Source of the DNA: Eledone cirrhosa
Lineage: Eukaryota
NCBI GenBank assembly: GCA_964016885.1
Contig: OZ024755.1
Location: forward strand, 21,142,001 to 21,206,000
DNA length: 64,000 nucleotides
Reading direction: 5' to 3'
Each line of letters opens with the position of its first letter. The first letter of the stretch is position 1. Below are positions 3,698-59,950 of this stretch, in pieces. The notes beneath the pieces were generated by a model. It worked only from the letters and a program-made list of their open reading frames with translations, searched no databases and was not told the origin of the DNA. The translations under genes and the position numbers were made by a program.

Positions 3698-3815
3698 TTT
3701 ATAGGAAGGACTTCTATATGATTAGAACTGTTTCATTCTTAAGATATCACCAGGAAAGTCCTGATGAATTCTTATAAATGAAACAGTTCTAGTCCTGTAG
3801 AAGTTATTTCTATAA
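3698..3815. repeat. Hairpin with a hammerhead-like core on each arm (Penelope-like remnant)
   Basis: Arms cttctatatgattagaactgtttcatt / aatgaaacagttctagtcctgtagaag; CTGATGA at 3761 and GAAAC at 3780. Confidence 0.55.
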
Positions 3816-4307
3816 TAAAATAAGTATGCCTCTACTCTGCTCACGTATATTGAGTACCTTTTTTAACTGTGGTCACCTCTTGATATACGTCAGGAATCCA
3901 CCTATAGTTTGTGTGTGTGTGTGTGTGTGTGTGTGTGCTGTCATTTAGGCACAGTTGTTTTTGTGGTTGCCTATTTTCCTGGTTGGATACTCTTCCTAGT
4001 ACCAACTCCCTTACAGGGTGTACTGAGTGTATTTTTTTTTTTTTACTTGTAACCAGCACTACCACTTTACAGAGTCTATTAGAAGAGAGAAACATTTTAT
4101 TATGACACCAACGCTAGAGAGGTTGTCACTTAGATGTTCCTTCTTCCTGAAGAGTCCTCTCAAACCCTATATAATCTCCGTTAAGTCCTCATCACTGTAG
4201 CTTCCTATACATAGTTATAAAAACATCAAGACAACTAATTTATTTCTTTTTAACTTCCCAACACGATCTTAGATATTTGTATAATTTATGTTAAAATATC
4301 CAAGTCT

Positions 4308-4676
4308 TTAACCCTTTCCCGACTGCATTTCTAATGAAATACACTCTATTTTAATTAATAAAGAATTTTGAGAGATTTCCTAAAATTATTAATTATTTCA
4401 TTAGTAAGATAGCAACCTAATCTAAGATTTTTATATAAAATTATGTTGGAAGATTTTAATTTAAATCAGAAACTTTTAAAATTGATGGTTTTATTTCATA
4501 GAACCAGAGCCGGTTTGGGCCAGGCTGGTAAGATTTCACTGCTCTAACATCAATCAAAACCTAATGTAAGGTTCTTATATAAAAAGATGTTGGAAGATTT
4601 TAAACCTTTTAAAATGAGTGGTTTTATTTCATAGAACCAGAGCCGGTTTTGGCCAGGTTAGTAACTAAAGGGTTAA
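4308..4676. mobile_element. piggyBac-like MITE (family B) with an internal duplication
   Basis: Starts TTAACCCTTT and ends AAAGGGTTAA; related copies near 31210, 31820, 49290, 55196, 61300. Confidence 0.75.
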
Positions 4677-5557
4677 ACCTCAACCCACCTAAAACTTCTT
4701 TAATTAAAATGTTCAATTTTAAATTCAAATCTTCGTCAGCAATCTCATTATTACATGACAGATATTATTAGGTTTCAGTTGGTAATTTCTTAATTTTTGT
4801 TTTATTAAGTTAAAAGTTAAGATATTTCACCAAAACTCTCATAATTCTTGATTATTTTGATAATCAAAATAGAAAGACAGTATGTTCTTTGTTAGAAATC
4901 TGATCATAAAAGGGTTAGATAGATACATTAGAATATCATGAAAGAGTAAACTCACTAAAACTGTTGCATTTAATGGTCAAATAATATTTCTTAGTTCACA
5001 GAAAAGAGAGAGTGTAATGTCAAGATAACAACAGTCGTTAAATATAGACGGTAGTGAACTATTCTTAGAATATGGATAGTCTTCGGTATACTGATTGGTT
5101 AATATAAATAGATGTCTTTAAATAGAACTGTGGAACAGAAATGGAAGGTTGATTCATTTTGGAAACACACACACACACACACACACACAATACACTTAGA
5201 CATATATCATTGTGTATGTGTGTATATATACTTACATACATACATATATATATATGCACACACACACACACATGCATATATATAGATATATATATGCAGA
5301 CACATACATTATATATGTAATCATTTTCATCAGTTACTATCCATTTTAGGAGACAATGGAAATTTTTTCTTTACCATAATTATTCTTTCTCTTCTTTCTC
5401 TTTCTTCTTTCTCTCCCTCCCTCATATCTTCATACGCCATCATTATACTGCTGTATTGTATGTAATGATTATATAAGCCTACTTGTAAGTAGCTATCTTT
5501 AATACACCTACCAAAGGTGAACACTGAGTTAATTTCTTTCCATTTTTGTCTCTTTAG

Positions 5558-5623
5558 AACCCAAATCTCATTTTCATCATCATCCGATATTTTTCATCCT
5601 TTTCTTTACAACATACCACCAAG
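5558..5623 (+). CDS. Candidate 66-nt internal exon of an unidentified host gene
   Basis: Polypyrimidine acceptor tttttgtctctttag, donor AAG|gtaatt, length a multiple of 3, open in all three frames (phase 2 reads TQISFSSSSDIFHPFLYNIPP). Confidence 0.4.
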
Positions 5624-57576: not shown

Positions 57577-57859
57577 GATAGATAGGTAGATGGATAGATA
57601 GATAGGTAGATTGGTAGATAGATAGATAGATATATAGGTAGATTGGTAGATAGAGATAGATATGTATATACTCATAACCCATATATAAATCATATTTCTA
57701 TTGAAATAAGGTAAGAAACACTGTCTGATTTTCAATTAATTTTGAAAATCTAGAATTTGGAGAGATTTGCTTATATAATTAACTTTCTCATTATAATAAT
57801 AATAATCAAAATTATTGTTTACAGTGCCAGAGTTTGGAGCATAACTTGACAAGATTATT

Positions 57860-58041
57860 TGGCAGTATCGGTAGAAGGTCGGATGCCATGCTTTGACGCA
57901 TAGAGTTACGGCCCTTTCCATTCTGAGTTCAAATCCTGGCAAGGTTAACTTTGCCTTTCATCCTTACGGTGTCGATAAAATAAAGTACCAGTAATGCACT
58001 GGGATAATTGCTGGCCTTATGCCAAATGTAGAAACAATTAT
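57860..58041 (+). mobile_element. Meta-domain tRNA SINE
   Basis: Family consensus match. Confidence 0.85.
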
Positions 58042-59700
58042 TTCATGTATTGTAAGATTAATATTATTATAATTTCTTTAACCCTTTAGCATTTATATTA
58101 CTCTATATATACTATTGTATTTTCACAGTAAACACTTTATCTCACATAATTATTTCACATAATATCGAATCTAGGAGATTTTGATATTATTTATTTTGAG
58201 AACAATACCTTAACATAATTATGAGCCAGTTTGAACAGAAATGGGTAACAGCCAGTTTGAACAGAAATAGGTGAGAGAATTCTGACCAGATATGGCCAGT
58301 TTAAATGCTGAAGGTTTAAAACAAATAGTTTTGTATCATAAAACCTGGGTCACTTTCAGGTAGTTTGACATGAAAAGAAGTTATGCAATTTGAAATTGTG
58401 GTCTACATTTCACATCTGGGTCTGTTAAGGTTTCCAGTTTCACACTGTGCTGATTATATACGTGCCATAGTTACATCTAGTATCATACATGTGATCTGAC
58501 ACTATTGAGATTAAGTATTTTGATAACGATTTCCGTGCTGTGACTATAATAAGATTCAGTCCATTCACCATTGAAATATTTCTCAGGTAGTTTGTGTTTG
58601 TGTAGTTTCATTAGCTTTAAATGATAAGACGTAATGAAATCGAAAATACCTTTTTGGTATTTTATATAACAATAAATAAGATATCTATTTCATTTCTACC
58701 TACTTCCCCTCCCATATTCCCACCCCTACAACTCTCTCTCTAAATCTACCTCCTCTCTCTATATCTATCTATCTATCTATCGATCTCACTTGATCCTCTC
58801 TTTTAGTTTATTTTACATTATATCATATTTTATTCATAGAACAAAAACATCCAGTCCACCCTGCAAGGTGGTTGTTCTGGGGACATGATGAAAAAATACC
58901 TAGTCCACCCTGTCAGGTGGTCATACTGGTGACATGACAAAAACACCCAGTCCACGCTGTATTGTCTTCCTATATTGACTTTGTGCATGTGTGTGTGTAT
59001 ATATTTATATATACATATGTATATATGTATATATATATATATATTCTAATAATATTAACCTTATATATATATATATATATATATATATGCAAGCGTGGAA
59101 TATGGACGTTAAACGATATATATGTGTGTGTATATATATGTGAAAGAAAAGGACAAGAAAGAGATGACAGTAATGATGTAAAATTCATTTAGCCTGAAGG
59201 TACTTGAATATTTTATAGCTTTACAGAAATTTTTATAGAATTTTGTAAAATTTTCTCTTGCATAAAAATATCCTGCTATTTTAGAATAATTTTTATTCGT
59301 GTTATGTTAATATAGCATATCAACATAACATTGTTAAGATCAATATATATTGATTTCACTACTTAATCATTCAGTTCAAGTTAAATTTTTATTTTGGTTA
59401 ATAACCTATGTCCTATTTCTAGACATATCAAGAATGCCTTTGTAACCGTTTTTCAACTCAGGTTAAGAAAATTTGAAGAAATTTACTATGTATATATATA
59501 TATATATATATATATATATAAAATTATATTATATTATATTATTGTTATAATTTGGGAGGGTCATGCTGCCATTAAAAACACACGCCTGTTGGTTTTCACC
59601 TTTTATTAATAGCATGACCCTCCCAAACTATACCAATATCTGTTTCAACACACATTTTCAGATAAGTAATCTTGCAAAACAAATACAAAAACGAAGTCTA

Positions 59701-59950
59701 AATATTATATTATTTATTCCTGTTCATACACAAAACAAGGTGACAAGGCCCTAATTTGACCATACCTCCAGAAAATAAGAAGCATCAAAATAGTGATCTT
59801 TCTTCAGGTGCTAATACGAGATTATAAGCACCTGAAGAACGGTCACTATTTTGATGCTCTTGTTTTCTGGTGGTATGGTTCAATTTGGGTCTGGAAACCT
59901 TGGGTAGCGCTTTTGTTCTGTGTATGAACATAAATATATAATATAATATT
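59701..59950. repeat. Long imperfect hairpin whose right arm carries a hammerhead-like motif (59826-59912, + strand)
   Basis: AAGCAC-CTGAAGA-[55 nt]-GAAA-CC(TTG)GG-TA-GCGCTT; arms agcatcaaaatagtgatc / ggtcactattttgatgct. Confidence 0.6.

What the first reader, a model, noticed from the sequence alone, without database searches (positions are those of the whole stretch)
3698..59950. Dispersed hammerhead ribozyme-like motifs from several unrelated repeat families
Seen: about 8 loci fit helix I-CUGANGA-helix II-GAAA-short helix III-UH, at 3761(+), 9962(-), 19716(-), 23965(+), 24412(-), 28678(-), 47104(+) and 59826(+). Their helix sequences differ but still pair, and some lie in hairpins or just upstream of AATAAA. 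Established: Penelope-like elements (PLEs) and retrozymes carry minimal type I hammerheads with a palindromic helix III that cleave as dimers. Inference: this genome holds many non-autonomous PLE/retrozyme-like families at roughly one motif per 8 kb, invisible in the ORF track, and some may sit in host introns.
Basis: partly seen in the sequence, partly recalled or inferred. Interest (0 to 1): 0.75.

Follow-up and report, generated by a model that had tools for sequence, protein, structure and literature searches.

The report
Penelope retrotransposon ends carrying hammerhead ribozymes
All eight self-cutting-RNA-like motifs are real and sit in abundant repeat families of this octopus genome, most of them cut-short and often decayed ends of a known kind of jumping gene (Penelope-like elements) and one likely a protein-free circular repeat, so this is known biology at unusually high density, with cutting itself untested.

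Summary
In detail: all 8 loci are type I hammerhead (HHR) motifs, each inside a high-copy repeat family of an Octopus genome. Only 3 window copies keep their family's motif (10005, 23972, 28709); 5 are damaged. In 1 Mb of evenly spaced genome samples a strict descriptor gave 71 hits, against 0.17 in shuffles and 0-1 with decoys. That is about one per 14 kb, roughly 2x10^5 genome-wide by extrapolation. Longer copies of six families lead upstream into Penelope-like (PLE) RT and/or GIY-YIG ORFs (Hydra-type for three). These loci are therefore mainly 5'-truncated ends of autonomous PLEs, not non-autonomous families. One family (47109) is an ORF-less, circularly permuted ~300-nt unit, retrozyme-like. 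One (19747) is unlinked so far. The core variants (U3-A8, U4C, U-U at the base of helix II) have printed precedents, and an HHR-bearing Hydra PLE from O. bimaculoides is already published. Cleavage, expression and intron location are untested. This scan found the same system earlier on other DNA of this genome. Verdict: new members of a known kind; notable mainly for density and for a young family with a fixed U4C core.

The parts
3699..3881 (+). Family F: inverted duplication of a PLE end. + arm core CUGAUGA 3761-3767, GAAA 3780-3783, UA 3798-3799, no helix I partner; - arm core 3753-3747 (A6G) with helix I
   Evidence: related subfamily (77-81% identical) lies 1.3 kb downstream of a PLE ORF in L242
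9760..10081 (-). Family B: 3' end of a young Hydra-type PLE ending in (TA)n. HHR 10010-9962: helix I 5 bp, core CCGAAGA (U4C), helix II 8 bp, palindromic helix III ACAAUUGU, cleavage predicted after 9967
   Evidence: U4C in 25 of 25 copies; ORF upstream in L157/L158; dimer fold
10166..10277 (-). Older family-B-like fragment downstream of the HHR region (74% identity)
19667..19858 (-). Family G: decayed HHR (core 19747-19741, G12A, C15.2U); related to family A; no ORF link shown
23660..24250 (+). Family C: 3' end of a young PLE with Zn-finger linker and CCHH endonuclease. HHR core UUGAUAA 23972-23978 (U3-A8), GAAA 23993-23996, palindrome ACCGGU, helix I only 2 adjacent pairs; element ends approximate
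   Evidence: 25 of 25 copies share the core
24281..24540 (-). Family D: 3' end of a Hydra-type PLE. Core 24452-24446, GAAA 24415-24412; 14-nt deletion removes helix III and cleavage site; tail-to-tail with family C across (TA)n 24251-24279; element ends approximate
   Evidence: 588-aa RT+EN frame upstream in L168/L169
28610..28744 (-). Family A: PLE 3' end with intact minimal HHR 28713-28678 (core 28709-28703, extra A after A9, G10.1-C11.1, GAAACGU, cleavage predicted after 28682)
   Evidence: GIY-YIG frame upstream and collinear in L280, L281, L289, L294
47005..47265 (+). Family E: most of one ~300-nt circularly permuted, ORF-less unit (retrozyme-like, old). Core 47109-47115, GAAA 47130-47133, UC 47140-47141; helices mutated; ends approximate
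59682..59990 (+). Family H: inverted pair of Hydra-type PLE ends. + arm core CUGAAGA 59832-59838, 55-nt helix II, GAAA 59894-59897, UA 59905-59906; - arm core at 59807 with a deletion at GAAA; ends approximate
   Evidence: RT+EN remnants upstream in L327 and L312

Best explanation
The eight motifs are minimal type I hammerheads carried in the 3' pseudo-LTRs of several Penelope-like retrotransposon families, and the window copies are short, mostly decayed ends that were likely left by 5'-truncated reverse transcription into (TA)n tracts. Shown: fixed 3' ends at (TA)n, ragged 5' ends, inverted partner arms, and upstream RT and/or GIY-YIG ORFs for families A, B, C, D, H and the F lineage. Inferred: the PLE protein nicks AT-rich DNA, starts reverse transcription just 3' of the HHR and usually stops within a few hundred bases, so nearly every insertion carries the HHR but not the ORF. 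In the active element's RNA the HHR is predicted to cut weakly, as a dimer through the palindromic helix III or with help from the protein. Family E is an ORF-less ~300-nt circularly permuted unit that is likely copied in trans by the same enzymes (retrozyme-like). After insertion the copies appear to decay neutrally.
For: Each locus is a high-copy family (1134-3599 first-look candidates, not copy numbers). ORFs on the same strand upstream: C (Pfam GIY-YIG above cut-off in 2 of 2 endonuclease-bearing pieces); D, a 588-aa frame with CxCX5C linker, CxxC and CxH, the Hydra marks of PMC8557442 section 11; B, same marks, frameshifted; A, 4 distinct loci, collinear; H, 2 loci; F lineage, 1 locus. 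Inverted arms: 12 of 30 H loci with breakpoints 1-51 nt upstream; 10 head-to-head pairs among 37 D hits. Sample: 71 hits per Mb against 0.17 shuffled, 1 in reversed sequence and 0-1 in each of 9 decoys. Helix sequences differ between families and still pair around one core. Non-CpG substitutions in core 61/1757 (3.5%) and flanks 755/18851 (4.0%) are alike. E: the unit's 3' segment precedes the core in 24 of 42 distinct loci, in 7 of the 15 loci found with the core query.
Against: No cleavage or expression data. No copy with both pseudo-LTRs flanking an intact ORF was recovered among the 14 family loci extended to 10 kb. G has no ORF link: 16 of the 20 furthest-reaching copies stop near one 5' site and about 4 run further, so it may be a short non-autonomous family. 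Only 3 of 71 sample hits had a PLE ORF hit within 2.5 kb upstream on the same strand, against 2 on the opposite strand, so the link rests on the targeted walks. Pfam found nothing in 4 of 7 ORF pieces, including the Hydra-type ones and all RT parts; clade labels rest on motifs, not on a tree. C has only 2 adjacent helix I pairs and may not cleave. The F link is through a relative at 77-81% identity.
Confidence: 0.9

Rival explanations
1. The loci are mostly non-autonomous retrozyme-like families that spread through small circular RNAs.
For: Family E is circularly permuted and ORF-less. G has a 5'-end hotspot. 310-nt tandem HHR arrays exist elsewhere in the genome (L166, L206). bioRxiv 10.64898/2026.07.22.740005 ties retrozymes to PLE pLTRs.
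Against: Six families continue into PLE ORFs and have one fixed 3' end with ragged 5' ends. None of the 8 window loci is a tandem array.
Confidence: 0.12
2. The inserted copies have been co-opted as host regulatory ribozymes that cut introns or transcript ends.
For: High density makes genic insertions certain somewhere; 3 window copies keep the family motif; AATAAA follows 4 of 8.
Against: Cores decay as fast as flanks; 5 of 8 window copies are damaged; single copies lack a dimer partner; no host coding exon was found in the window.
Confidence: 0.05
3. The motifs are chance matches in AT-rich, hairpin-rich repeat DNA.
For: Six of 8 window copies fail the strict descriptor; CTGANGA occurs 36 times in the window.
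Against: About 400-fold excess over shuffles and decoys; family majorities restore the full motif.
Confidence: 0.01

Closest known systems
Minimal type I HHRs in pLTRs of metazoan PLEs (Cervera and de la Pena 2014, PMC4209133; parts 1-2 of 4 read)
   Same: Short helix I, extra nucleotide after A9, palindromic helix III, many families per genome, mostly single truncated copies, inverted pairs 100-700 bp apart, U3-A8 variant (S. mansoni Cercyon), 2-bp helix I (D. virilis).
   Different: Counts there: about 2,000+1,300 (S. mansoni), 4,000 (coelacanth), 9,000 (X. tropicalis); here about 2x10^5 by extrapolation, with a different and more relaxed descriptor. Many families here have a 1x1 mismatch instead of G10.1-C11.1 next to the core (47 of 71 sample hits by my count).
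Hydra-clade PLEs, including Hydra-1_Obim (Craig et al. 2021, PMC8557442; passages, section 11, supplement rows and alignment passages read)
   Same: B and D ORFs carry CxCX5C, CxxC and CxH; H's ORF remnant resembles Hydra-1_Obim by eye; (TA)n targets; an HHR is listed for Hydra-1_Obim in File S2.
   Different: The listed Hydra-1_Obim HHR differs from all eight here; six short family motifs gave no hit in the supplement text (wrapped lines and split columns could hide them). B carries U4C; H a 55-nt helix II.
Metazoan non-LTR retrozymes (PMC7229834, passages and section 15 read; bioRxiv 10.64898/2026.07.22.740005, part 1 and passages)
   Same: Family E: ORF-less ~300-nt unit, one HHR, low GC, head-to-tail junction. 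Axolotl HHR_Amex2 has a U-U mismatch at the base of helix II and cleaves.
   Different: E is old (76-82% identity) and occurs as 1-1.5 units, not long arrays; circular RNA not shown. Axolotl has 126,247 motifs, a similar total in a much larger genome (size recalled, about 32 Gb).
Poseidon PAc element of Anolis (Frangieh et al. 2024, PMC11167929; parts 1-2 of 4 read)
   Same: AT-rich target, optional tail at one end, HHR in the pLTR; model for the mechanism inferred here.
   Different: There the HHR was tested: protein-assisted and not needed for insertion in vitro. Nothing was tested here.
U4C hammerhead variant of a viroid (cited in Perreault et al. 2011, PMC3088659; passages read)
   Same: Same core change, reported to cut activity considerably in vitro yet allow infectivity.
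   Different: Here it is fixed in a young, amplifying animal retrotransposon family (25 of 25 copies). One search for 'hammerhead ribozyme'+'U4C'+'core' gave only this paper.

Membership tests
Minimal type I hammerhead of PLEs | Core C3UGANG8A9 / G12AAA / UH in type I order | tested here: met
   All 8 family majorities; B has U4C and C has U3-A8
Minimal type I hammerhead of PLEs | Helix I of 4-5 bp or more adjacent to the core | tested here: inconclusive
   Met in A, G (4), B, H (5), E (7), D (8); C has 2 adjacent pairs; F only in one loop orientation and in relatives
Minimal type I hammerhead of PLEs | Palindromic, unstable helix III allowing dimers | tested here: met
   ACGU (A, G), ACAAUUGU (B), ACCGGU (C), near-palindromes in D, E, H; F has a 4-bp stem with 8-nt loop; cofold gave the dimer for B, not A
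Minimal type I hammerhead of PLEs | Extra nucleotide after A9 and G10.1-C11.1 pair | tested here: inconclusive
   Met in A and G; B, C, E, F have a 1x1 mismatch there; D and H open with A-U
Minimal type I hammerhead of PLEs | Site-specific self-cleavage after H17 | not testable with these tools
   Needs in vitro transcription
Penelope-like element (EN+) | RT plus C-terminal GIY-YIG ORF upstream of the pLTR | tested here: met
   B, C, D, H, F lineage: RT and EN; A: EN and part of RT by tblastn; not found for E, G
Penelope-like element (EN+) | 5'-truncation, fixed 3' end, inverted partner copy, (TA)n target | tested here: met
Penelope-like element (EN+) | Full ORF flanked by two direct pLTRs | tested here: inconclusive
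   Not seen in 14 family loci extended to 10 kb; they were truncated or carried an inverted arm
Hydra clade | CxCX5C linker, CxxC and CxH, no CCHH | tested here: met
   Read in D (L168) and B (L157); partial in H (L327); definition
Hydra / Neptune / Nematis clades | Placement in an RT phylogeny | not tested
   No tree built; A, C, F are called Neptune/Nematis-like only from CX2-5CxxC and CCHH motifs
Non-LTR retrozyme (family E only) | ORF-less 150-450 nt unit, head-to-tail with one HHR | tested here: met
   Fixed junction, periods 273-394 nt in self-alignments; no linked PLE ORF in 30 tail-query loci (one opposite-strand hit in L335)
Non-LTR retrozyme (family E only) | Two or more full units with intact HHRs | tested here: not met
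   E loci hold 1-1.5 decayed units; met only by the unrelated 310-nt arrays L166 and L206
Non-LTR retrozyme (family E only) | Expressed as circular RNA | not testable with these tools
   No RNA data laid

The most novel reading that the evidence does not exclude
This octopus genome carries on the order of 200,000 intact-looking hammerheads, the densest load among the reports I read. Young, still-amplifying PLE families have fixed weakened cores (U4C in B; U3-A8 with a 2-bp helix I in C; a 1x1 mismatch at the base of helix II in most sampled motifs). That would mean PLEs tune their ribozyme down so that it fires only when the element's own protein or an inverted or tandem partner is present, and the family series would be a natural test set for what the PLE hammerhead is for.
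Probability: 0.3. Interest if true: 0.6.

Novelty: new member of a known kind. Interest (0 to 1): 0.33.

Why it matters
The role of the hammerhead in PLE transposition is open: it is present in most clades, reported absent from Naiads, and dispensable for insertion in vitro (PMC8557442, PMC11167929). An octopus genome with many coexisting families, young masters with variant cores and a parasitic ORF-less unit gives natural variants to test. It also shows that a recent detailed Octopus vulgaris repeat annotation does not mention these ribozymes (0 occurrences of 'hammerhead' or 'ribozyme' in the main text of PMC13282606). The kind of system itself is known.

Tried and rejected
Rfam scan at E<=10: no hammerhead family among the 150 of 173 rows shown; hits were microsatellite artefacts and tRNA-like pieces. 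First descriptor (helix II <=40 nt, helix III <=14 nt) missed H and F; at two core mismatches it returned noise such as 4739(-), which was dropped. Idea that F and H are fixed-hairpin MITEs: rejected for H, since only 12 of 30 loci found with one arm carry the inverted arm and breakpoints vary, and for F, since relatives occur without it. tblastn of 10 PLE ORF pieces against the window: no hit. Non-circularly permuted (type SGC) hammerheads, a lead from earlier notes: my descriptor found 0 in the window and 0 in the 1-Mb sample; as earlier notes claim over 10,000 copies, my descriptor may be too strict, so this is inconclusive. Sequencing runs for family B: no RNA holder listed; nothing was laid. 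Intron test: the neighbouring SOCS-box gene's two mapped coding exons lie outside the window; an upstream first exon was not found. Literature searches: hammerhead+Penelope+ribozyme, octopus+Penelope+hammerhead, hammerhead+ribozyme+cephalopod, octopus/cephalopod TE terms, U4C; none of the listings showed a genome-wide count of PLE hammerheads in an octopus; the giant squid paper reports 235 Rfam hammerhead-1 hits (passage). Supplements of PMC4209133 (motif alignments) and of the bioRxiv preprint were not seen and could hold the same variants.
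Full report
Setting. The window is G000:C15:21142001-21206000 of a 3.0-Gb genome in 1796 contigs. It is 36% GC and full of microsatellites. A gene 2.3-4.5 kb beyond the window's end encodes a SOCS-box protein 99% identical to an Octopus bimaculoides protein, so the animal is an Octopus or a very close relative. Of 15 long frames of the window scanned against Pfam, the 5 with hits are LINE pieces. No PLE ORF piece is in the window.

Observation. All eight loci were read on the stated strand. 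A strict type I descriptor allows cores CUGANGA, UUGANAA or CCGANGA, 0-1 unpaired bases beside helix II, helix I of at least 4 bp and a palindromic or at least 3-bp helix III. It passes two window loci, 28709(-) and 10005(-), against 0.015 per shuffle, and 0 of 200 shuffles reach 2. The descriptor was written after the families had been seen, so the independent test is the genome sample below. Each locus was used as a query against the genome and is a high-copy repeat: A 28709, B 10005, C 23972, D 24452, E 47109, F 3761, G 19747, H 59832. In alignments of 15-30 best-scoring copies per family, the majority has a complete core in all eight. Window copies A, B and C equal their family motif. D has a 14-nt deletion across helix III and the cleavage site. 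G has G12A from CpG decay (6 of 15 copies differ at G12). E and H keep the core but have helix mismatches. F's plus arm has no helix I partner because the loop of the inverted duplication is flipped, and its minus arm has A6G.

Density. 100 stretches of 10 kb were taken at even steps on 27 chromosome-scale contigs (C16 and small contigs left out). They gave 71 descriptor hits in 38 stretches, with a bootstrap range of 50-95 per Mb; six hits come from one tandem array. Twelve shuffles gave a mean of 0.17. Reversed sequence gave 1, five scrambled cores 0-1 and four GAAA decoys 0-1. Extrapolated, this is about 2.1x10^5 (1.5-2.9x10^5) intact-looking motifs, one per 14 kb. The eight window families alone gave 91 BLAST hits in the sample (D 37, F 27, G 15, A 6, B 3, C 2, H 1, E 0; these include diverged relatives and pieces without the HHR).

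What the families are. Copies share a fixed 3' end, usually at (TA)n, and end raggedly at 5'. C: longer copies hold an RT (YLDD) and GIY-YIG frame with CX4CxxC linker and CCHH, ending about 300 nt before the HHR (Pfam GIY-YIG). D: L168 holds a 588-aa frame with RT, CxCX5C linker, CxxC and CxH about 1.5 kb before the HHR; L169 shares 2.9 kb of it. B: L157 and L158 hold the same type of ORF, frameshifted. These are the Hydra marks given in PMC8557442 section 11. H: L327 and L312 share the upstream region and carry Hydra-type RT/EN remnants that resemble Hydra-1_Obim by eye. A: walking 700 nt upstream reached a GIY-YIG/CCHH frame, collinear in L280, L281, L289 and L294. F: a relative with the same helix III, 77-81% identical, follows a PLE ORF in L242. 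Inverted partner arms are common and start at variable points (B, C; H 12 of 30; D 10 pairs among 37 hits), as described for PLEs. E behaves differently: the sequence upstream of its HHR is the continuation of the sequence downstream of it, with a fixed junction and periods of 273-394 nt. The 3' segment precedes the core in 24 of 42 distinct loci; 27 of these loci were found with that segment as query, and among the 15 found with the core it is 7. No linked ORF was seen, so E is retrozyme-like but old. G resembles A in the HHR and downstream box; of the 20 copies reaching furthest 5' (chosen from 39 hits), most stop near CCACTCTCCAAGATGG and about 4 run on into shared AC-rich sequence. Its status is open.

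How it likely works. Shown here: anatomy, family links, excess over chance, and equal decay of core (3.5%) and flanks (4.0%) among inserted copies (copies were chosen for likeness to the window copy). From the literature: a PLE protein cuts AT-rich DNA and starts reverse transcription at internal sites that define the optional tail; its HHR is protein-assisted and not needed for insertion in vitro (PMC11167929). Minimal PLE HHRs did not cleave as monomers and cleaved weakly as dimers (PMC4209133). Inferred: because synthesis begins just 3' of the HHR and usually stops early, almost every insertion deposits an HHR without an ORF, which explains a motif every few kb that is invisible in an ORF track. 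Selection acts on the master elements, where helices change between families and still pair, and not on the inserted copies. For B, cofolding two copies gives an 8-bp intermolecular helix III with helices I and II in hammerhead geometry (-32.8 against 2 x -11.3 kcal/mol); for A it does not.

Against this reading. No cleavage or RNA evidence. No full pLTR-ORF-pLTR copy was recovered. In the blind sample only 3 of 71 hits had a same-strand PLE ORF hit within 2.5 kb upstream, against 2 on the opposite strand. Pfam missed 4 of 7 ORF pieces. Clade names come from motifs, not a tree. C's helix I is only 2 bp next to the core.

Comparison and novelty. PLE hammerheads, their abundance as single truncated copies, U3-A8 and a 2-bp helix I are in PMC4209133. 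U4C is known from a viroid (PMC3088659). A U-U mismatch at the base of helix II is known from axolotl retrozymes (PMC7229834). An HHR-bearing Hydra PLE from O. bimaculoides is listed in the supplement of PMC8557442. Earlier unchecked notes of this scan describe the same system on other DNA of this genome. What I did not find in five searches is a genome-wide count for an octopus or a U4C core fixed in an animal retrotransposon. The finding is real and well explained: new members of a known kind, at high density.

Noticed in passing
L166:2882-5975 (G000:C2, from 156774382) and L206:8400-10000 (G000:C3, near 98.01 Mb): 310-nt tandem arrays with one HHR per unit, about 99.9% identical units; L166 is a head-to-head palindrome of 5 and 4 units. 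A young retrozyme family, also in earlier notes.
   Followed up: partly
window 24251-24279: Families C (+) and D (-) meet tail-to-tail on one (TA)n tract, a sign of repeated targeting of the same microsatellite.
   Followed up: partly
window 3747-3767; loci L111-L125: The loop of family F's inverted duplication occurs in both orientations (AAAGT or ACTTT) relative to the tail-bearing arm; unexplained.
   Followed up: partly
L127, L130, L133, L135, L137-L139, L362-L381 (family G 5' ends): 5' ends cluster at CAAGATGGCCG, which I recall as a YY1-type site at the 5' end of human L1 (recalled, not tested); could be an internal promoter or a truncation hotspot.
   Followed up: partly
1-Mb sample, e.g. 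L183:9887, L201:1591, L208:3757: The commonest motif in the sample (CUGAYGA U AGCU loop AGCU/U GAAACUAGUA, about 18 of 71 hits) belongs to a family absent from the window.
   Followed up: no
L171:2265-2483 and 3413-4540 (just beyond the window's end): Two coding exons of a conserved lophotrochozoan SOCS-box protein; the first residues may come from an unmapped upstream exon.
   Followed up: partly
window 16446-17837(-), 43437-45927(-), 56093-57697(-): LINE remnants: RVT_1, RVT_1 with PHD and an exo/endo-phosphatase domain, and zf-RVT.
   Followed up: no
window 11197-11267(+), 15678-15741(-), 52493-52550(-): tRNA-like Rfam hits, probably heads of tRNA-derived SINEs.
   Followed up: no
L003:about 1790-3150: A single-frame 467-aa membrane-protein-like ORF next to a family A copy; looks like an intact host gene.
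   Followed up: no
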